Below are positions 2,575 to 42,734 of a DNA stretch of 44,881 nt, one piece after another (position 1 is the first letter of the stretch; every line of letters starts with the position of its first letter). A model generated the notes under the pieces. That model saw nothing but the letters and a program-made list of their open reading frames with translations. It did not search any database and had not been told where the DNA came from. Made by a program: the position numbers and the translations under genes. This stretch comes from a phage: the sequence record PV730301.1; one strand, 5' to 3'.

Positions 2575-2987
2575 TGGGCTACTTTGAGGACTTAACAAAA
2601 GCGTTTGATGTGCCGCTGGTAGCCTTCGGAACCGCCAACGGCATCAAGGTTGCTCTTGAAAACATCGACGCGCCGACGTCAACCAATACACCGTATCTGG
2701 CAAGTTACATGTTACTTGCGGACACCGAGCAGGCGGATTTGTTCTTCACGGAACAACGCGCTGGTGTCTATCAGGTAGATATTAACTACGCATCGGCGAA
2801 AGGTAGCGCGCCAATCAATAAAATGGCAGACTTACTTAACACGGCGTTTAAAGCAGGTAAGTCATTTTCACGTAACGACATCTGCGCCGAGGTTCAATCG
2901 GTTAGCCTGGGGCCGCTGATTGTAGAAAACGGATGGGCCAAACGACCATTGTCAATTAACTTTATTGCATTCACCAAGAGGCTGTGA
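2574..2987 (+). CDS. putative tail completion/terminator protein
   Basis: Position immediately before the major tail protein; AAGGTGA RBS. Confidence 0.4.
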   Translation: MGYFEDLTKAFDVPLVAFGTANGIKVALENIDAPTSTNTPYLASYMLLADTEQADLFFTEQRAGVYQVDINYASAKGSAPINKMADLLNTAFKAGKSFSRNDICAEVQSVSLGPLIVENGWAKRPLSINFIAFTKRL

Positions 2988-2989
2988 AT

Positions 2990-4156
2990 ATGGCTACAAC
3001 TCCTTTTAAGGGCGCGAATACCGCGCAATTCTATGTGGCGGAAGTGACCCCGGGCGTAACACCGGATAACCCGGTATGGTCGCCGTTGCGCAATACGGGC
3101 GGCGTTCCCGCCATTACCCGCGACACGCTGACCTCTAACGAACTGGACGGCAGCCGTGAAACCACATCCATCCGCACCGGCAACAAACAGGTTAGCGGGG
3201 AATACGCTATCGAGCTTAGCTCTAAAAGTCAGGACGACTGGTTAGCTGGGGCTTTAGGCTCTACGTGGCAATCCGGGGTTTCTCTGTCCGATCTGTCCAT
3301 TACCGTCGCACCGGCAGGCAAGACGTTTACCCGCGCGGATGGTAGCTTCATTACGGACGGCGTTGAAGTAGGCGACCTGATCGCGTTCACCGACTTAACG
3401 GGCGACAACGCTAAACCGTTCATCGTAACCGAGGTAAGTGCGACTGTTGTCACCGGTGCCGGTATCCAACATACTCTGACCACCGAGACCGTAACAACCG
3501 ACGCTAAAACCGGCGACAAACTGGAAACTGGTAACGCGTGTAAGACGTTCTCTATCCTCACCTGGTACAAAGGCCAGTGCGGCGGGGCCGACGCGTACAC
3601 GCTAACCAAAGGCGTGGAAGTTTCTGGTTTCACTGTTGAGCAGGCGGTCAACGCGATGGTAACTGGCAGTTTCCCGTTCATCGGCCGCAGCCAGGAGATT
3701 CTCACCACGCCGCCGACGGGTTCTGATTTCTCCTCTGTTACGTTTGGTGACGAGCCATTCTCCTCCGTCGACGTTTCCGTGTTCGACGGCTCTACGCCGT
3801 TGCGTTGTGACAGCCTGACCATCACCAACGACAACAGCGCGTCCGCACAGTTCGAACTCGGTAATACTAACGTAGCGTTTGTGGAACGTAGCCGCGCGGC
3901 TAACACCTTCTCCATCTCCGGTAAGCTGTACGACATGGCTATGATTCAGAAGTTTATCAACGAACAGCAGGTAGAGATTAACTCTATTCTGGCGGGGGTA
4001 AACGGGGCTATGTCTTTCAGTTTAAAACGCGCGGAGCTTACGGCGGTTACCCCAGAAATATCTGGCCCGGAATCGATTACCCAAAGTATAGAAGGGCAGT
4101 CCACAGGCAACCAGTACCAGTCGTCCATTACTATCCAGCGTATCACCTACGCATAA
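2990..4156 (+). CDS. putative major tail (tube) protein
   Basis: 388 aa, last gene of the neck/tail block, followed by a strong terminator; start taken at ATG 2990 (AAGAGG RBS) rather than the GTG at 2984. Confidence 0.5.
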   Translation: MATTPFKGANTAQFYVAEVTPGVTPDNPVWSPLRNTGGVPAITRDTLTSNELDGSRETTSIRTGNKQVSGEYAIELSSKSQDDWLAGALGSTWQSGVSLSDLSITVAPAGKTFTRADGSFITDGVEVGDLIAFTDLTGDNAKPFIVTEVSATVVTGAGIQHTLTTETVTTDAKTGDKLETGNACKTFSILTWYKGQCGGADAYTLTKGVEVSGFTVEQAVNAMVTGSFPFIGRSQEILTTPPTGSDFSSVTFGDEPFSSVDVSVFDGSTPLRCDSLTITNDNSASAQFELGNTNVAFVERSRAANTFSISGKLYDMAMIQKFINEQQVEINSILAGVNGAMSFSLKRAELTAVTPEISGPESITQSIEGQSTGNQYQSSITIQRITYA

Positions 4157-32284: not shown

Positions 32285-32557
32285 ATGGTACAGAGATACG
32301 ATTTAAAAGAAGACTGTGTTACGGGGCATATTGACTTAGAGAAAGACGCAGACGGTGACTGGGTGCGTTATGGAGACTACAAGGAACTGGACAACAGTTT
32401 CCAGGACTACATAACAACTACGGACATGGAAATAGAAGGGCTTGTGGTAAGATTGGCAGAAGTAAACGCTGAGTTACAGAAATACAAAGACCAGTTCCCT
32501 GATTACGTCGAGTGCGCGAACTGTGGGTCAATTACACATGTGGAAGGGGTGGAGTGA
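32285..32557 (+). CDS. hypothetical protein, paralog of the next gene
   Basis: AGGAG RBS; begins MVQRYDL like 32557..32751. Confidence 0.5.
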   Translation: MVQRYDLKEDCVTGHIDLEKDADGDWVRYGDYKELDNSFQDYITTTDMEIEGLVVRLAEVNAELQKYKDQFPDYVECANCGSITHVEGVE

Positions 32558-32751
32558 TGGTGCAAAGATATGAATTAGAGCTTTATCATTGCAATGGCGG
32601 AGAGATGGAGCCGTGTGATGAAGGTGGTTACGTAGAGTACGAAGATTACGCGGAGCTGGAGCGAAAACTGTGTAACTTCGCCGCCCAGGTACTGTACTCA
32701 CCTTGTTCGAAAGTTACCGAAGAAATGGCCTGCGAGATTCTCGGTATATGA
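32557..32751 (+). CDS. hypothetical protein, paralog of the previous gene
   Basis: TGATG coupling; begins MVQRYEL; shares the (D/G)(W/Y)V(R/E)Y(G/E)DY(K/A)EL(D/E) motif. Confidence 0.5.
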   Translation: MVQRYELELYHCNGGEMEPCDEGGYVEYEDYAELERKLCNFAAQVLYSPCSKVTEEMACEILGI

Positions 32752-33041
32752 GCCTCGCAACTGACATCCTGAAACGAAGCGGCATTGCGCCGCTGTCACC
32801 GAGAGCTAAAACACAGATATACAAGCGCCGCCGTAACGCGCTGTACCCGGAGATTCAGGCCAGACGCAAAGCGGTCCGCGCCTGTGGGTTCCAGAACGGG
32901 AGGGCGGTGAATCTCGGTGAGTTCAAGACAAAGGAACGCGCCGCTATCGCTAATCGGTTATTTAATTACTGGAAATCGCTGGGATACGATGATATTCCGA
33001 CGAAACCACAGAGACGACAATACATCTGGAGACATAAATGA
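32748..33041 (+). CDS. hypothetical basic protein
   Basis: ATGA coupling on both sides; Arg/Lys-rich. Confidence 0.45.
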   Translation: MSLATDILKRSGIAPLSPRAKTQIYKRRRNALYPEIQARRKAVRACGFQNGRAVNLGEFKTKERAAIANRLFNYWKSLGYDDIPTKPQRRQYIWRHK

Positions 33042-33478
33042 CTACTATCGCGTTCGACGGAAAGACAATGGCCTGTGATACCCGTGTTGTGTGCGGAAGT
33101 AACTGCTACAACACAGACATAAAGATATACGAGAATGATACTTATGTTATAGGGGTAGCGGGTGACGCTGGAGTTGGCACTATGCTTATCGATTGTCCGG
33201 GTATTCTTCGACCACAGCCCTACGACTTCGATTTCGAGGCCCTGGTGTTCGTGAAAGACACAGAAAAGGTGTATAAAGTCGCGTTTTATAAATCATGGGA
33301 TTGTGCACTTAGTTCGGTTATTCCAATTGCGGATAGCTTCGCCGCCGTGGGGTCTGGCTCGCCCTATGCGTTAGCCGCTATGGAATGCGGGTATTCGGCG
33401 CATGGTGGTGTAGCTGTTGCCTCGAAGTTCGACACTAACACCGGCGGCAAGATTATTACCAAACAACTATTAGGATAA
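33038..33478 (+). CDS. HslV/proteasome beta-like Ntn-hydrolase peptidase
   Basis: N-terminal MTTI (Thr nucleophile after Met removal), VIGVAGDAGVGTML and AAVGSGSPYALAA resemble HslV motifs. Confidence 0.65.
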   Translation: MTTIAFDGKTMACDTRVVCGSNCYNTDIKIYENDTYVIGVAGDAGVGTMLIDCPGILRPQPYDFDFEALVFVKDTEKVYKVAFYKSWDCALSSVIPIADSFAAVGSGSPYALAAMECGYSAHGGVAVASKFDTNTGGKIITKQLLG

Positions 33479-33537
33479 TTCCTACCCGTGGTATCCTCCA
33501 GTTACTGCATACTTAATACGCACCTGGAGGATTCATC

Positions 33538-33846
33538 TTGGATAAATTTACTGAAACAGTGACAGGGTGGCTTCTCGCCGCCGCACTAGCCGGAGGGGTC
33601 ATCGGGCTACGACAACATAAGTCCGTTATTTCTGGCCCCATCGACGGGTTCTGCTTTATTGCAACTGGCTTCACCTGCGCCGTATTTGGCGCACCTCTCG
33701 CAGCTCAATGGTTCGGCATTACCGGCGAACGCGAAATAGCTGGCCTCGGATTTATCATCGCTGTTCTCTGGATGCCTATCTATTCCCGCCTTTCTGGCAT
33801 CGTCGCCGGAGAATACATCGCACGTCGAGGAGGCCCGGATGAATGA
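33538..33846 (+). CDS. holin (three predicted TM helices), TTG start
   Basis: Hydrophobic segments; position before the endolysin; GGAGGA 6 nt before the only available start (TTG). Confidence 0.55.
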   Translation: MDKFTETVTGWLLAAALAGGVIGLRQHKSVISGPIDGFCFIATGFTCAVFGAPLAAQWFGITGEREIAGLGFIIAVLWMPIYSRLSGIVAGEYIARRGGPDE

Positions 33847-34111
33847 GTTATTCTGGTTCGGCGGTATGCTGGCAATCGGAGGCACATCGCTGTTTAACGT
33901 GTATCATCCCAGCGTTGACGACGGATTATTTGGCCGTGTGCTCTATATCCTGACCGCTATTGTCTGCGCCGCCGGGTGTATCCACCTGTTACAGGGCAGC
34001 ATGTCACCAACGCTGCCCGAGACCTTAATTACATTAGTTGCGCTGCGCCAGATTCGCCAGGCGTGGCTGTCATACGGAGGACATAAGCGTGTCTCGAAAT
34101 ATTTCAGATAA
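33839..34111 (+). CDS. holin/antiholin-like membrane protein
   Basis: Two hydrophobic segments; ATGA coupling; lies between holin and endolysin. Confidence 0.45.
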   Translation: MNELFWFGGMLAIGGTSLFNVYHPSVDDGLFGRVLYILTAIVCAAGCIHLLQGSMSPTLPETLITLVALRQIRQAWLSYGGHKRVSKYFR

Positions 34112-34577
34112 TGGGTTGCATTTCACTGCCGCGTTCGAGGGGTTCCGCGGAACTGCGTATCGCGCTACACCGAATGAGAAGTACCTGACTATTGGGTATG
34201 GAAGCTATGGCCCGCATGTTAAGGCTGGACAGACCATCACGCCGGGGCAAGGCCTCCTGTTACTTAACCGTGATATGGCTAAGGCCGTGGCTGCGGTTGA
34301 TGCAGCGGCGCACCATTCACTGACACAGGCGCAGTTCGATGCCGTGTGCGACCTGGTCTACAACGCCGGTGCAGGCGTGATTGCCGCTACTACAGGCACA
34401 GGTAAGGCGCTGCGCTCAGGTGATACCGTGACGCTGCGGGCCAAGCTGGCACTGTTCATCAACCAGAACGGCAAACCGTTACTTGGCCTGCGTCGCCGTA
34501 CTGCGGGTCGTCTTGCACTGTTCGACGGTAAACCGTGGCAGGAGGCGGAGGCTATCGGGCGCGCGGTGAAAGGTTGA
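34089..34577 (+). CDS. endolysin, GH24 lysozyme (P22 gp19-like)
   Basis: FEGFRGTAYRATPNEKYLTIGYG and QFDAVCDLVYNAG match the phage lysozyme pattern; GTG start with GGAGGA RBS. Confidence 0.8.
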   Translation: MSRNISDNGLHFTAAFEGFRGTAYRATPNEKYLTIGYGSYGPHVKAGQTITPGQGLLLLNRDMAKAVAAVDAAAHHSLTQAQFDAVCDLVYNAGAGVIAATTGTGKALRSGDTVTLRAKLALFINQNGKPLLGLRRRTAGRLALFDGKPWQEAEAIGRAVKG

Positions 34578-38564: not shown

Positions 38565-40046
38565 ATGTTAACTATGAACGGTCAGAATCAGGGTGTTAAG
38601 ACAAAACACCGGGAATGGCTGCATCACTTCGATAAATGGCAGAAGGTGCGCCACGCGCTGGAAGGCGACCTTATTCGCTATCTGCGCAACGTCGGGAAGA
38701 ACGAGCCTGACCCGACCTACGCAGCACAGCGCCAGGAAGAATACGAGAACGGTGCTATCTGCTACAACTTCACTAAACGTACCCTGGTAGGGATGGTGGG
38801 GTCGGTTATGCGCAAAGACCCCGAGCAGATTATCCCGCCTGAACTTGAGTACCTGTTACGTAATGCCGACGGTTCCGGCGTTGGCCTGTGGCAGCACGCT
38901 CAGGACACTCTAATGGAGATTGACTCGGTTGGCCGCGGCGGGTTGCTGGTTGACGCCCCGGAGACAGCCGCAGCAACGGCAGCCGAGCAGAACGCGGGGC
39001 TATTAAACCCGGTAATCGCATTCTATACCGCAGAGAACATCATCAACTGGCGACTGACTCGCGTCGGTTCTGTTAACCGCATGACGATGGTCGTGTTGCG
39101 TGAGGTGTGGGAATACTCAGAACCGGATGCAGAGTTCGAAACAAAGTTCGGTGAGCAATACCGTGTTCTCGATTTGATTGACGGGCGCTACCGTCAGCGT
39201 ATTTACCGCTTCGATGCAGAAGGTGGTGCACAGGGTGAAGTAAAACAAATCTTCCCGAAACTTGGCGAACAGCTACGCGGCAAAATCCCGTTTACGTTCA
39301 TTGGCGCGAGCAACAACGACGCAACCATCGACGACGCCCCTTTGCTCCCGTTGGCTGAACTTAATATCGGGCATTTCCGCAACAGCGCGGACAATGAAGA
39401 GTCCAGCTTCGTTGTAGGCCAGCCCACTCTGTTCATCGCCCCTGGTGAAAACATGAGCATGGAACAGTGGGTGGAAGCTAACCCACGCGGTGTGCGCATG
39501 GGGTCGCGTTCAGGCCATAACATCGGGTACGGCGGAAACGCGTTTCTGGTTCAGGCAGGAGAGAACAACCTGGCCAAGCAGAATATGCTGGATAAAGAGA
39601 ATCAGGCAATCCAGATTGGCGCGCAGCTTATCACCCCGACGCAGCAAATCACCGCTGAATCAGCACGCCTGCAACGCGGCGCGGATACGTCCGTTATGGC
39701 GACAATCGCACGTAACGTAAGCATGGCATATACCGATGCGTTGCGCTGGGTGGCTGCGATGCTAGGGTTGCGTGAAGGTACAGAGGTTGAGTTCAAGCTG
39801 AATATGGAGTTCTTCCTGCAACCAATGACCGCTCAGGACCGCACCCAGTGGATGGCGGATATTAACGCTGGCCTGTTACCGGCTACAGCTTACTATGCGG
39901 CATTGCGTAAGGCGGGCGTAACGGACTGGACGGACGAAGACATTCAGAACGCTATCGAGGATGCGCCTCTGCCTATGGGCGCGGTTACCCGGGTGCAGGG
40001 GGAGATTCCGCAGTCTGCGCAACAACAGGACACCACTCAGCAGTAA
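38565..40046 (+). CDS. portal protein
   Basis: 493 aa directly after the large terminase, before the head-morphogenesis gene. Confidence 0.7.
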   Translation: MLTMNGQNQGVKTKHREWLHHFDKWQKVRHALEGDLIRYLRNVGKNEPDPTYAAQRQEEYENGAICYNFTKRTLVGMVGSVMRKDPEQIIPPELEYLLRNADGSGVGLWQHAQDTLMEIDSVGRGGLLVDAPETAAATAAEQNAGLLNPVIAFYTAENIINWRLTRVGSVNRMTMVVLREVWEYSEPDAEFETKFGEQYRVLDLIDGRYRQRIYRFDAEGGAQGEVKQIFPKLGEQLRGKIPFTFIGASNNDATIDDAPLLPLAELNIGHFRNSADNEESSFVVGQPTLFIAPGENMSMEQWVEANPRGVRMGSRSGHNIGYGGNAFLVQAGENNLAKQNMLDKENQAIQIGAQLITPTQQITAESARLQRGADTSVMATIARNVSMAYTDALRWVAAMLGLREGTEVEFKLNMEFFLQPMTAQDRTQWMADINAGLLPATAYYAALRKAGVTDWTDEDIQNAIEDAPLPMGAVTRVQGEIPQSAQQQDTTQQ

Positions 40047-40056
40047 GTTCACATAT

Positions 40057-40079
40057 AGCCCCGAAAGGGGCTTTCTTAT
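40057..40079 (+). terminator. terminator-like hairpin (possible attenuator inside the head operon)
   Basis: AGCCCC-GAAA-GGGGCT hairpin followed by TTCTTAT. Confidence 0.45.
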
Positions 40080-40082
40080 AGT

Positions 40083-41159
40083 ATGCTATTAACTTTAGCG
40101 CCACAGGGTTTATTTATGAGCTTACTTACATCACTAATCAGCCACCAGATATGGCTGCAACGCACCGCATCCGGCGAAGTGAAAGACCTCGCGCCGTTCA
40201 TTCAGGAGATGCGGGACGAAATAAAACGGCAGGTGCTGCTATTCGGCGACGACGGGCGCAGCACTGCGCGACTGAATAAACTGTTACGTGACCTCGAAGA
40301 AGCGCTAACTGGACTTACAGGCGACTGGCAAACAAAGCTGACAGAAGACCTTAAGGAACTGGCGGCGTATGAGGCTGAGTGGAACGTAAAGACACTGACC
40401 GCCAACGTTAACGCGGAATTTGTTACACCTACGGCCGAGCAGGTGTGGGCCGCAGCCGAGTTTCAACCCTTATCGTTAAGCGACAAGCCCGTTGACTTCA
40501 CTAAGCTGATGTCTGGCTGGGGTGAAACGGAGGTTGCGCGCCTTGTAACGGGCGTTAAGATGGGTTTCGCACAAGGCCAGACAACACGGCAGATTGTTAA
40601 GAATGTTGTAGGCGCTGGTGGACTAGCCAACATCTCTGAGCGTAACGCAGCTACAGTAATCCGCACCGCGCTGTCCCACGTATCCAACGAAGCCCGTAAT
40701 GAGACGTACCGCCAGAACGACGACATCATTGAGAAGTACGAGTGGGTGTCGACGTTGGACAGCCGCACCAGTACAATTTGCAGAGCCAGAGACGGAATGA
40801 CGTGGGAAATCGGAAAAGGGCCGATGCCGCCAGCGCATCCGAATTGTCGGTCATGCACGGCCCCTGTGATTAGCTCGGAGTTCGACTTCCTGGATAAAGG
40901 CGCAAAACGCGCGGCTAAAGGCGCAGACGGCGGAGCCCAGGTAAGCGCGGGCACCACTTACTACGAGTTCCTGAAACAGCAACCGGCATGGTTTCAGGAC
41001 CAGGCGCTTGGTCCTGTTCGCGGTAAGATTTTCCGTAACAGCGGTATATCGCCGGAAGAGTTTCGCGTAATATCTGTAGATGGTTTCGGGAATCCGCTCA
41101 CGCTTAGGCAGATGGCGGAACTCGATAAACGTGTTGCTGATTATCTGAAAGGGGAATAA
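40083..41159 (+). CDS. head morphogenesis protein (Mu F / SPP1 gp7-like)
   Basis: Position after the portal; size. Confidence 0.55.
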   Translation: MLLTLAPQGLFMSLLTSLISHQIWLQRTASGEVKDLAPFIQEMRDEIKRQVLLFGDDGRSTARLNKLLRDLEEALTGLTGDWQTKLTEDLKELAAYEAEWNVKTLTANVNAEFVTPTAEQVWAAAEFQPLSLSDKPVDFTKLMSGWGETEVARLVTGVKMGFAQGQTTRQIVKNVVGAGGLANISERNAATVIRTALSHVSNEARNETYRQNDDIIEKYEWVSTLDSRTSTICRARDGMTWEIGKGPMPPAHPNCRSCTAPVISSEFDFLDKGAKRAAKGADGGAQVSAGTTYYEFLKQQPAWFQDQALGPVRGKIFRNSGISPEEFRVISVDGFGNPLTLRQMAELDKRVADYLKGE

Positions 41160-42123: not shown

Positions 42124-42303
42124 CCACCTGAGCTTGTGAAGTATGAACAAGCGACCGCGGCGCGGGCAGGTAACGGAGCGGGACGTAAGTCCTGAGTGTA
42201 GTTACGCTGACGCGTTCGGAAGGGCCACACTCTATTGCTTGTGTAAAAAGTAACTGGTTTACTGAGATTACGCCGTTTCTATGTTTAAATGATAAGGACT
42301 AGC

Positions 42304-42330
42304 GCCCCGCTTTATGGCGGGGCTTTACTT
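42304..42330 (+). terminator. leader terminator/attenuator directly upstream of the spanin gene
   Basis: GCCCCGC-TTTATG-GCGGGGC hairpin followed by TTTACTT, 18 nt before the RBS. Confidence 0.5.
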
Positions 42331-42347
42331 ATCGAGAAAGGAGAAAC

Positions 42348-42734
42348 ATGAATCTTAAAGCAACTGTCGTAGCGGGAGCATGTTTCATCATCCTGGCTTA
42401 CGCACACGGCATCTACCAGTATCGCAGCGGCTGGAACGAAGGCCGGGCGAATCTCGTTTCGCAGCAACAGCAGAAAGCACAGGCTGAGTTCGCGAAGAAA
42501 ACACAACGGCAGCAGCAGGATGAATCAAAGGCAGCCGCCGCTGACAACGAAGGTAAGACGAAATCAGAGGTGATTACCCGTGAAGTCGTTAAGTACATTA
42601 GAACGCCTGGTCGCAGCGTGTGCACTTTTGACCCTGAGCGCGTGCAGCTCAAGTCCCGCGCCGTCGCAAACGCCAATTCCATCCCCGGATACGACGATGA
42701 TGCAGCCGCCGTGCAAACTGGCGCCGCCAAGTAG
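42348..42734 (+). CDS. i-spanin (Rz-like)
   Basis: N-terminal TM helix, Gln/Ala-rich coiled coil, AAGGAG RBS, embedded +1 frame lipoprotein ORF. Confidence 0.7.
   Translation: MNLKATVVAGACFIILAYAHGIYQYRSGWNEGRANLVSQQQQKAQAEFAKKTQRQQQDESKAAAADNEGKTKSEVITREVVKYIRTPGRSVCTFDPERVQLKSRAVANANSIPGYDDDAAAVQTGAAK

What the first reader, a model, noticed from the sequence alone, without database searches (positions are those of the whole stretch)
32748..33478. Phage-encoded HslV/proteasome-like peptidase coupled to a basic partner gene, just upstream of the lysis cassette
Seen in sequence: the 33038..33478 product begins MTTI and contains VIGVAGDAGVGTML and AAVGSGSPYALAA, resembling HslV motifs (N-terminal Thr nucleophile, GSGG.YA box), but is only 146 aa. 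No HslU-like ATPase is present. It is translationally coupled (ATGA) to an upstream 97-aa basic protein. Inference: a host-protease-mimicking or host-ATPase-hijacking peptidase, or a degenerate regulatory homolog.
Basis: partly seen in the sequence, partly recalled or inferred. Interest (0 to 1): 0.6.

Follow-up and report, generated by a model that had tools for sequence, protein, structure and literature searches.

The report
Known phage mini-proteasome homolog (PPH)
The gene is real and encodes a small proteasome-like threonine peptidase of a phage family that was already named (PPH) and is routinely annotated, so it is a known but functionally unstudied gene, and its supposed basic "partner" is more likely an independent DNA-binding protein.

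Summary
ORF 33038..33478 (146 aa, MTTI...) and ORF 32748..33041 (97 aa, pI 11.2) overlap by ATGA and lie directly upstream of holin, holin and endolysin. The window is a Kagunavirus (Guernseyvirinae) coliphage.

The 146-aa protein matches PHROG 1040 "peptidase HslV family" (E 2.5e-35). A confident AF2 model (pLDDT 88) matches only proteasome beta, HslV and ClpQ structures. Thr1, Asp17, Lys33, Gly47, Gly-Ser-Gly and Asp166 equivalents are 91-100% conserved in 149 distant relatives, and dN/dS is 0.05. It is therefore a probably active enzyme, not a degenerate one.

[quoted passage not shown] I found no experimental work on it.

It is not HslV proper. It scores 15 bits against a 158-bit cut-off. 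It lacks H2 with HslV's Arg86/Arg89/Lys90 pore cluster. No unfoldase is encoded in the window.

The gene is dispensable. About 37 of 116 Kagunavirus-type records carry it, and K1ind3 and Golestan keep only its last ~18 nt as a deletion scar.

The basic neighbour persists without it, looks AP2-like, and is absent from PPH loci outside Guernseyvirinae. Verdict: real and ordinary, already known, function still open.

The parts
33038..33478 (+). PPH gene: a 146-aa proteasome-like N-terminal-threonine peptidase (PHROG 1040). Catalytic codons: Thr2 33041-33043, Asp14 33077-33079, Lys29 33122-33124, Gly42 33161-33163, Gly105-Ser106-Gly107 33350-33358, Asp132 33431-33433.
32748..33041 (+). Gene for a 97-aa basic protein (pI 11.2; phrog_9632, related to phrog_4947). 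It has an invariant N-terminal MSLATDILK, a basic linker and a probable AP2-like DNA-binding core (residues ~41-80). It is a conserved neighbour of PPH, not an obligate partner.
33038..33041 (+). ATGA start/stop overlap between the basic gene and PPH. An SD-like GGAG lies 8 nt upstream. The same kind of overlap occurs at 32748..32751.
33040..33460 (+). The 421-nt segment that is missing in PPH-less Kagunaviruses (K1ind3, Golestan). In them the basic gene's stop codon becomes TAA.
33461..33478 (+). The last ~18 nt of the PPH ORF (AAACAACTATTAGGATAA). PPH-less relatives retain them as a deletion scar.
33179..33223 (+). Codons 48-62: the end of helix H1 and the loop that replaces helix H2. This is the most variable segment among Kagunavirus-type PPH proteins (mean entropy 1.24 bits against about 0.3 in the core).
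33493..33532 (+). RNA hairpin in the PPH-holin spacer. Its 3' arm contains the holin Shine-Dalgarno GGAGG (33526-33530). This is context, not part of the peptidase.
   Evidence: the sequence is conserved in PPH-less phages
33538..34577 (+). Lysis cassette immediately downstream: holin 33538..33846 (TTG start), holin 33839..34111 and endolysin 34092..34577.

Best explanation
[quoted passage not shown] This is a minimal proteasome-beta-fold N-terminal-nucleophile hydrolase.

Shown here:
- It has the proteasome fold with a single helix where proteasome beta and HslV have H1 plus H2.
- It keeps the full catalytic set (Thr1, Asp17, Lys33, Gly47, Ser129, Asp166 equivalents).
- It has no propeptide.
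- It is under strong purifying selection.
- It is an accessory gene: ancestral to Guernseyvirinae but deleted in about two thirds of sequenced Kagunaviruses.

Inferred:
- Host methionine aminopeptidase removes Met1 and exposes Thr as nucleophile.
- The enzyme acts in the infected cytoplasm as a stand-alone, ATPase-independent peptidase on a restricted set of protein or peptide substrates.
- Specificity is set by the variable surface that replaces H2.
- The benefit is conditional (host- or strain-dependent), not an essential step of replication, assembly or lysis.

The upstream 97-aa basic protein is a separate small DNA-binding (AP2-like) protein. It shares the polycistronic, overlap-coupled small-gene array with PPH, not a two-component mechanism.
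For: Family and fold:
- PHROG 1040 'peptidase HslV family', E 2.5e-35.
- AF2 pLDDT 88.2, pTM 0.85, with only helix 44-51 between strands S4 and S5.
- All significant Foldseek PDB hits are proteasome beta, HslV or ClpQ, with Anbu just below the threshold.
- An 80-sequence family profile hits beta5 at 3e-11, HslV at 4e-11 and BPH at 8e-10, with Thr1 aligned to Thr1.
- PPH was described as ~140 aa, lacking H2, phage-borne (PMC8665760).

Activity:
- In 149 representatives: T2 99%, D14 99%, K29 100%, G42 100%, G105 100%, S106 91%, G107 100%, D132 97%. 144 of 150 start with MT.
- dN/dS is 0.054.

No unfoldase. None is adjacent in 13 other PPH loci examined.

Accessory status:
- The basic gene is in 116 records and the PPH gene in about 37 Kagunavirus-type records.
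- K1ind3 and Golestan go straight from the basic gene to the holin and retain the last ~18 nt of the PPH ORF.
- PPH sits at the same locus in Jerseyvirus.

Variable surface: entropy peaks at residues 48-62 and 116-130.

Basic protein:
- Pfam AP2 in 3 of 6 homologs, best E 0.018.
- hhalign to the AtERF1 AP2 strand-helix, 53% identity over 19 columns.
- Hits to the AP2-bearing part of HNH-endonuclease PHROGs at E about 1e-3.
- The AF2 core is a hairpin plus helix.
Against: - No biochemical evidence exists for any PPH; I found none in the library.
- The related stand-alone homolog BPH was inert on standard substrates, so peptidase activity on proteins is an assumption.
- The oligomeric state could not be predicted here.
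- Independence from HslU is inferred from missing elements, not tested.
- The gene pair basic protein plus PPH is syntenic in both Guernseyvirinae genera. This leaves room for a functional link in phages that have both.
- The AP2 assignment is weak: the Foldseek hits were not significant and the model pLDDT is 61.5.
Confidence: 0.6

Rival explanations
1. Host-unfoldase hijack. PPH assembles into HslV-like rings that dock onto host HslU (ClpY) or another AAA+ unfoldase. This redirects ATP-dependent degradation during infection.
For: - It has the proteasome/HslV fold and catalytic residues.
- The phage encodes no unfoldase of its own, while E. coli has HslU.
- Phage genome papers note 'HslV without HslU'.
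Against: - Helix H2, which in HslV carries the HslU-responsive Arg86/Arg89/Lys90 cluster, has no counterpart.
- HslV Lys28, which from my own recollection of the HslUV structures binds the HslU C-terminal carboxylate, aligns with Tyr.
- NCBIfam HslV scores 15.1 bits against a cut-off of 157.75.
- The family profile is no closer to HslV than to eukaryotic beta5.
- The related BPH does not bind HslU.
- Family members occur in phages of Microbacterium, a host group whose phylum shows no HslV in Table 1 of PMC8665760.
Confidence: 0.12
2. Sequence-specific processing enzyme or ligase. Like archaeal connectase, which also lost helices of the first pair and is monomeric, PPH would be a non-compartmentalised enzyme. 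It would cut or join one defined target, for example a host defence or regulatory protein.
For: - Loss of H2 alters the surface that ring-forming relatives use for stacking and for docking regulators.
- Variability is concentrated on that surface while the active site is invariant.
- The presence/absence polymorphism, and alleles more diverged than the adjacent gene (78 vs 95%, 77 vs 92%, 76 vs 89% nt identity), are typical of host-interaction accessory genes.
Against: - No target is known.
- There are no PADLOC or anti-defence matches.
- Connectase lacks both H1 and H2, whereas PPH keeps H1.
- Nothing here tests the oligomeric state.
Confidence: 0.15
3. Two-gene module. The basic 97-aa protein is a cofactor, substrate or regulator of PPH, as suggested by translational coupling.
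For: - The ATGA overlap.
- The pair is syntenic in Kagunavirus and Jerseyvirus.
- The basic protein has an invariant N-terminal nonapeptide maintained at the protein level, which could be a recognition motif.
Against: - About 79 of 116 Kagunavirus-type records keep the basic gene, with the same N-terminus, but no PPH.
- No homolog of the basic protein was found outside Guernseyvirinae-type phages, apart from a few marginal hits.
- None is next to PPH elsewhere.
- ATGA overlaps are generic in this gene array.
- The only 'fusion' (phage SE40) is a frameshift artefact or pseudogene.
Confidence: 0.1
4. Morphogenetic or virion-associated protease, such as a prohead maturation or injected protease.
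For: - In several unrelated phages the homolog lies between the head-tail adaptor and head-closure genes. These genomes have no annotated prohead protease (Gungnir39, Vibrio 1.147.O, L012/L013, L026).
- The Kagunavirus relative also has no annotated prohead protease.
Against: - In this phage the gene is in the small-gene array next to lysis genes, not in the head module.
- Viable, published Kagunaviruses (K1ind3, Golestan and about 77 more records) lack it. It therefore cannot be an essential assembly protease here.
Confidence: 0.06
5. Degenerate, catalytically dead homolog with a purely regulatory or structural role.
For: - It is only 146 aa.
- The single sequence is below the Pfam Proteasome threshold (18.5 vs 22.4 bits).
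Against: - All catalytic positions are conserved across the family.
- dN/dS is 0.054.
- The shortness is explained by loss of H2 and shorter loops, a family trait.
Confidence: 0.03

Closest known systems
[quoted passage not shown]
   Same: - About 140 residues, carried by tailed phages and prophages.
- Thr1/Asp17/Lys33/Gly47 present, no propeptide, second helix H2 missing.
- Proteins 80-96% identical to this one are already annotated in Kagunavirus genomes.
   Different: Nothing essential. What this analysis adds to the published description:
- the gene is polymorphic for presence within one genus, with a deletion scar;
- variability is concentrated on the H2-replacing loop;
- the genomic contexts vary.
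HslV (ClpQ), the peptidase of the bacterial HslUV protease
   Same: - Proteasome beta fold, Thr1 nucleophile, Lys33, a Gly-Ser-Gly box, and an N-terminus TTI....
- Foldseek TMq 0.65-0.70; profile E 4e-11.
   Different: - About 30 residues shorter.
- No H2, and so no Arg86/Arg89/Lys90 pore cluster.
- Lys28 is not conserved.
- The C-terminal motif is D-x-x-T-G-G as in proteasome beta, not the D-x-x-x-Y-T-N of E. coli HslV.
- No adjacent hslU.
- It scores 15 bits against the 158-bit HslV cut-off.
BPH (Betaproteobacteria proteasome homolog; PDB 5ovs/5ovu)
   Same: - A stand-alone proteasome homolog without a propeptide and without a partner unfoldase.
- Compact subunit.
- PPH is reported to radiate from the BPH cluster; profile E 8e-10.
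   Different: - BPH is about 200 aa, has H2 and a long acidic pore loop, forms 14-mers and is chromosomal.
- PPH is about 145 aa, lacks H2 and is phage-borne.
- The oligomeric state of PPH is unknown.
20S proteasome beta subunits (Pfam PF00227)
   Same: - The best profile hits are to beta5 (3e-11), aligned from Thr1 to the D-x-x-S-G-G motif.
- The top Foldseek hits are also proteasome beta subunits.
   Different: - No propeptide, no alpha-ring partner, no H2, and no C-terminal S12/H5 elements.
- The single sequence is below the Pfam gathering threshold.
AP2 DNA-binding domains of phage HNH homing endonucleases and plant ERF factors (for the upstream 97-aa protein)
   Same: - The W-x-A...G-x-x-x-x-LG-x-F-x-T-x-E-x-A signature.
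- A beta-hairpin plus helix core.
- Weak hits to Pfam AP2, to AtERF1 and to the AP2-bearing part of HNH-endonuclease PHROGs.
   Different: - No nuclease domain.
- The first AP2 strand is degenerate in the Kagunavirus version.
- It has a unique invariant N-terminal MSLATDILK.
- The statistical support is only marginal.

Membership tests
PPH (Fuchs et al. 2021) / PHROG 1040 | Sequence membership in the phage proteasome-homolog cluster | tested here: met
   PHROG 1040 at E 2.5e-35 over residues 1-143.
PPH (Fuchs et al. 2021) / PHROG 1040 | About 140 residues, no propeptide, no C-terminal extension | tested here: met
   146 aa starting MTT. 144 of 150 family representatives start with MT; median length 147.5.
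PPH (Fuchs et al. 2021) / PHROG 1040 | Second helix (H2) of the first helix pair missing | tested here: met
   The AF2 model (pLDDT 88) has a single helix, 44-51, between S4 and S5. The HslV H2 residues align to gaps.
PPH (Fuchs et al. 2021) / PHROG 1040 | Catalytic triad Thr1/Asp17/Lys33 and oxyanion Gly47 retained | tested here: met
   T2, D14, K29 and G42 are 99-100% conserved in 149 representatives.
PPH (Fuchs et al. 2021) / PHROG 1040 | Carried by tailed phages or prophages | tested here: met
   The window is a Kagunavirus. Homologs occur in 399 phage records.
HslV (ClpQ) proper | Scores above the curated HslV family cut-off | tested here: not met
   TIGR03692 scores 15.1 bits against 157.75. 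NF003964 scores 14.3 against 137.
HslV (ClpQ) proper | Partner AAA+ HslU encoded alongside (hslVU operon) | tested here: not met
   There is no AAA+ unfoldase in the window or in the annotated relative.
HslV (ClpQ) proper | Helix H2 with the basic pore cluster Arg86/Arg89/Lys90, and the HslU-tail-binding Lys28 | tested here: not met
   The H2 region aligns to gaps, and Lys28 aligns with Tyr24. The role of the cluster is taken from PMC5777263. The role of Lys28 is from my own knowledge of the HslUV structures.
HslV (ClpQ) proper | Dodecamer of two hexameric rings, activity dependent on HslU and ATP | not testable with these tools
   No multimer prediction or biochemistry was available.
Proteasome beta subunit (Pfam PF00227) | Passes the Pfam gathering threshold | tested here: not met
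   18.5 bits against 22.4. A few close relatives do carry a precomputed PF00227 hit. The fold and the profile-level homology are clear.
Ntn-hydrolase, proteasome-type fold | A beta-sheet sandwich core flanked by helices, with the nucleophile at the mature N-terminus | tested here: met
   Foldseek gives probability 1.0 to 18 proteasome/HslV chains at E<=1e-3. Thr follows Met1 directly.
AP2 DNA-binding domain (for the 97-aa neighbour) | Significant match to the AP2 profile or fold | tested here: inconclusive
   - Window protein: no Pfam hit.
- 3 of 6 homologs hit AP2 at E>=0.018.
- hhalign gives probability 16% and 19 columns at 53% identity.
- The AP2 structures among the Foldseek hits are not significant.

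The most novel reading that the evidence does not exclude
PPH is a stand-alone, unfoldase-independent threonine protease, or a connectase-like transpeptidase. Phages would carry it as an exchangeable host-interaction gene that cuts one specific host protein, for instance a defence or stress-response factor. The variable loop that replaced helix H2 would serve as the specificity determinant. This would explain why the gene is kept under strong purifying selection where present, yet lost in two thirds of sister phages.
Probability: 0.25. Interest if true: 0.65.

Novelty: already known. Interest (0 to 1): 0.3.

Why it matters
The existence of this gene is not news. It is annotated in dozens of GenBank phage genomes, it is a PHROG family, and a 2021 bioinformatic paper called it the first truly viral member of the proteasome family.

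What remains open is its function. No PPH has been assayed. The family is large: more than 2,000 clusters at 50% identity with E<=1e-10.

The Kagunavirus/Jerseyvirus system offers natural isogenic-like pairs with and without the gene in easily grown coliphages. That makes the question cheap to test. If the enzyme proves to be a specific, ATPase-free proteasome-type protease used against the host, it would be a new class of phage effector and a minimal model for proteasome-fold catalysis.

Tried and rejected
1. Single-sequence Pfam, NCBIfam and PDB searches gave only sub-threshold proteasome/HslV hits. Family-level profiles were needed.
2. I considered a 'Rosetta-stone' fusion of the basic protein and PPH, prompted by a 263-aa BFVD hit that corresponds to Salmonella phage SE40. 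Alignment shows a 1-nt deletion plus a 13-nt deletion that removes the Asp17 region. It is an assembly artefact or a pseudogene, so I rejected it.
3. PADLOC gave no match for either protein.
4. The third homolog search, seeded with the Jerseyvirus basic protein, returned only 5 proteins. The AF2 model of the basic protein is therefore poor (pLDDT 61.5), and its Foldseek search gave nothing significant.
5. The simple terminator scan found no intrinsic terminator between PPH and the holin. One weak promoter-like site lies inside the PPH 3' end and is not above chance.
6. Literature searches for experimental work on PPH, for Kagunavirus transcript timing of this gene, and in the paper's supplement gave nothing usable.
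7. Cluster look-up of ten diverse representatives gave almost no names.
8. Searching PPH neighbourhoods for a conserved partner found none. The contexts are head-neck modules, nucleotide-metabolism or replication modules, small-gene arrays, jumbo phages and positions next to lysis genes.
Full report
**Observation.** The window carries an ORF at 33038..33478 (+, ATG, 146 aa). It begins MTTIAFDG and contains VIGVAGDAGVGTML and AAVGSGSPYALAA. The 97-aa frame that starts at ATG 32748 ends with TGA at 33039..33041, so the two ORFs share ATGA. The upstream product is strongly basic: pI 11.2, 23 K+R against 6 D+E. The peptidase is acidic, with pI 4.65. Directly downstream lie two holins (33538..33846, phrog_2359; 33839..34111, phrog_2508) and an endolysin (34092..34577). 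One qualification applies. The ORF before the basic gene also overlaps it by ATGA at 32748..32751, so this coupling is a general feature of the small-gene array and not a mark of a special pair.

**Origin of the window.** The region is 82-92% identical to many Escherichia phages of the genus Kagunavirus, subfamily Guernseyvirinae (taxonomy). At 44.9 kb the window has the size of a whole genome of this genus. The closest annotated relative, vB_VIPECOTPH05A, labels the two genes phrog_9632 (hypothetical) and phrog_1040 'peptidase HslV family protein'.

**What the 146-aa protein is.**
- As a single sequence it is below the curated thresholds. Pfam Proteasome scores 18.5 bits against 22.4. NCBIfam HslV scores 15.1 against 157.75, and bacterial and archaeal proteasome beta models score 19-20 bits against cut-offs of 192-224.
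- It matches PHROG 1040 at E 2.5e-35 over its whole length.
- An AlphaFold2 model built on 31 homologs is confident (pLDDT 88.2, pTM 0.85). It shows the proteasome-type strand order, with one helix (44-51) after strand S4 and two helices (108-116 and 121-131) before the last strand.
- Foldseek against the PDB returns only proteasome beta subunits, HslV/ClpQ and Anbu, at probability 1.0 and TMq 0.65-0.70.
- A profile of 80 mutually distant family members hits human beta5 (3e-11), HslV (4e-11) and BPH (8e-10). The alignment runs from Thr1 to the C-terminal D-x-x-[ST]-G-G motif.
- The family is therefore about equally distant from HslV, BPH and true proteasome beta subunits. 'HslV family' is a convenience label.

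**Is it an active enzyme?** An exhaustive HMM search of 1.84 billion cluster representatives found 8,350 proteins at E<=1e-3 and 2,213 at E<=1e-10. Nearly all of the best 150 are 135-155 aa and align from residue 1. I examined 149 of these, each less than 50% identical to the others.
- Thr2 is conserved in 99% (Ser in the rest).
- Asp14 is conserved in 99%, and Lys29 and Gly42 in 100%.
- Gly105, Ser106 and Gly107 are conserved in 100%, 91% and 100%.
- Asp132 is conserved in 97%.
- 144 of 150 start with Met-Thr.

These positions correspond to Thr1, Asp17, Lys33, Gly47, Gly128-Ser129-Gly130 and Asp166 of the proteasome (alignment). With no propeptide, the nucleophile would be exposed simply by removal of Met1. 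That step is an inference from the known specificity of methionine aminopeptidase for small second residues. Between the window and its nearest relative there are 42 nucleotide differences but only 6 amino-acid differences (dN/dS 0.054). The 'degenerate homolog' reading is therefore rejected.

[quoted passage not shown] Their description:
- just ~140 residues, in Caudovirales phages and in prophage regions of their hosts;
- the catalytic triad and Gly47 retained, no propeptide, and the second helix H2 lacking;
- part of a group that radiates from BPH/HslV.

The window protein meets each of these features. I could not compare it directly with their representative sequence. Phage genome papers have also remarked on 'HslV without HslU'. 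I found no experimental study of any PPH.

**Why it is not HslV, and whether it needs HslU.** When aligned with E. coli HslV, the stretch that forms H2 has no counterpart in the window protein. That stretch carries Arg86, Arg89 and Lys90. These residues line the pore, are needed for HslV activity and move on HslU binding (PMC5777263). HslV Lys28, which I recall as the partner of the HslU C-terminal carboxylate, aligns with Tyr. In the window, the only ORFs of at least 100 aa with a Walker A motif that match a family are the large terminase and an SNF2 helicase; a third (42303..42731) has no Pfam hit. The annotated relative has no AAA+ unfoldase. None of the 13 other PPH loci I inspected has one nearby. 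The stand-alone relative BPH does not bind HslU either. Hijacking of host HslU is therefore unsupported, though not excluded.

**The gene is dispensable.** The basic gene is found at 80% or higher nucleotide identity in 116 phage records. The peptidase gene is found in only about 37 Kagunavirus-type records, even with sensitive blastn and tblastn.
- In K1ind3 and Golestan the basic gene is followed after 75 nt by the holin.
- At the junction these phages read ...GACATAAAT|AAACAACTATTAGGATAA.... That is the end of the basic gene joined to the last ~18 nt of the PPH ORF. Window positions 33040..33460 are missing and the stop codon changes from TGA to TAA.
- The sister genus Jerseyvirus has PPH at the same place, with a homologous C-terminal ...L-G stop.
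- The simplest history is therefore ancestral presence with later deletion. Viable, published phages lack the gene.

This rules out an essential role in replication, assembly or lysis in this genus.

**Variation where the gene is present.** Where PPH is present, its alleles differ from the window more than the adjacent basic gene does in the same genomes:

| Phage | PPH nt identity | Basic gene nt identity |
|---|---|---|
| SZH-1 | 78% | 95% |
| fEg-Eco19 | 77% | 92% |
| SCS92 | 76% | 89% |

Among 129 Kagunavirus-type sequences the variability is concentrated in residues 34-38, 48-62 (the end of H1 plus the loop that replaces H2) and 116-130. The catalytic core is invariant.

**The basic neighbour.** Its homologs are confined to Guernseyvirinae-type phages (495 records). 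The Jerseyvirus version (121 aa, phrog_4947) is 36% identical and also sits immediately upstream of PPH.
- All homologs share an invariant N-terminal MSLATDILK. It is maintained at the protein level, because K1ind3 uses TCG/TTA where the window uses AGC/CTC.
- A Lys/Arg/Pro-rich linker follows, and then a W-x-A...LG-x-F-x-T-x-x-R-A...W...G-[YF] core.
- That core gives weak but concordant AP2 signals. Pfam AP2 hits 3 of 6 homologs (best E 0.018). There is a 19-column, 53%-identical hhalign match to the strand-helix of AtERF1. There are E~1e-3 hits to the AP2-bearing part of HNH-endonuclease PHROGs.
- The AF2 core is a hairpin plus helix at pLDDT 71-79. Three AP2 structures appear among the non-significant Foldseek hits.

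I read it as a small DNA-binding protein (probability about 0.6). It persists unchanged in phages that have lost PPH, and PPH elsewhere never has it as a neighbour. It is therefore not an obligate partner. A 263-aa 'fusion' in Salmonella phage SE40 results from a 1-nt deletion plus a 13-nt deletion and is an artefact or a pseudogene.

**Contexts elsewhere.** PPH homologs occur in several settings:
- between the head-tail adaptor and head-closure genes (Erwinia Gungnir39, Vibrio 1.147.O, metagenomic L012/L013 and L026);
- at the ends of replication or nucleotide-metabolism modules (L017, L023, L025, Ruegeria RpAliso);
- in small-gene arrays (L015, L019, L024, Microbacterium Lifes);
- in jumbo phages (SPLA3).

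Adjacency to lysis genes recurs (Guernseyvirinae, L015, L017) but is not general. No partner gene is conserved.

**Most likely mechanism.**
- Shown: a proteasome-fold, Thr1-type hydrolase of the PPH family; intact active site; no H2; no unfoldase; accessory.
- Inferred: Met1 is removed by host MetAP. The enzyme acts in the cytoplasm without an ATPase on a limited set of substrates, selected by the variable H2-replacing surface. It gives a conditional, host-dependent advantage.
- The identity is near certain. The stand-alone mode is moderately likely. The substrates are unknown.
- Rivals, in order of confidence: a connectase-like specific processing or ligation enzyme (0.15), host HslU hijack (0.12), a two-gene module with the basic protein (0.10), a morphogenetic or virion protease (0.06) and a dead homolog (0.03).

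**Verdict.** The finding is real and correctly recognised as proteasome/HslV-like, but it is already known and already annotated. The 'partner' and 'hijack' ideas are not supported. Interest is modest (0.3) and comes from the fact that no member of this large viral family has been studied experimentally. This genus offers natural plus/minus pairs to do so.

Noticed in passing
window 33493-33532: A 9-bp hairpin, AUCCUCCAG/CUGGAGGAU, lies in the PPH-holin spacer. Its 3' arm buries the Shine-Dalgarno GGAGG of the TTG-started holin at 33538. The fold has dG -23.8 kcal/mol and z -3.47, and none of 200 shuffles folds as well. The sequence is kept unchanged in PPH-less K1ind3 and Golestan. It may provide translational control of the holin.
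   Followed up: partly
window 32748-32774 (first 9 codons of the basic gene): The N-terminal nonapeptide MSLATDILK is invariant across homologs that are only 33-45% identical. It is preserved through synonymous codon switches (AGC/TCG for Ser, CTC/TTA for Leu). This points to a protein-level motif of unknown function, such as a binding or recognition peptide.
   Followed up: partly
window 32285-32557 and 32557-32751: Two adjacent small acidic ORFs both begin MVQRY. They are 36% identical over 42 residues and both hit phrog_29624. This is a tandem duplication just upstream of the basic gene.
   Followed up: partly
L005 4001-4462, L006 4001-4441, L012 6001-6462, L026 5001-5423: In several unrelated phages the PPH homolog lies between the head-tail adaptor (or the gene after the major capsid protein) and the head-closure gene, often with overlapping stop and start codons. 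These genomes have no annotated prohead protease. A late or structural role in those lineages is possible.
   Followed up: no
L021 1096-1887 (Salmonella phage SE40, KY626163.1): The annotated 263-aa protein fuses the basic protein to PPH. The fusion arises from a 1-nt deletion and a 13-nt deletion that removes the Asp17 region. It is probably a sequencing or assembly artefact, or a decaying gene, in a 28.9-kb 'complete' genome.
   Followed up: yes
window 33139-33151, 33179-33223 and 33383-33427 (PPH codons 34-38, 48-62, 116-130): Among 129 Kagunavirus-type PPH sequences, variability is concentrated in three surface segments and appears as alternative allelic blocks, for example MECGYSAHGGVAVASKFD versus MYLGNTATRAITVAAQFD. 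This suggests recombination between PPH alleles.
   Followed up: partly
L011 (PQ429079.1) 39851-40237 versus 2652-3688: In the annotated relative, the Rz-like spanin gene lies next to the head scaffold gene, far from the holin-holin-endolysin block. The lysis genes are therefore split between two genome regions. I did not check this in the window itself.
   Followed up: no
L007 4001-4531 (Microbacterium phage Lifes): The tblastn match to PPH starts 36 nt upstream of the annotated start, at an Ile codon followed by TTI. The annotated start would remove the catalytic Thr, so the start codon in that record is probably mis-assigned or non-canonical.
   Followed up: no
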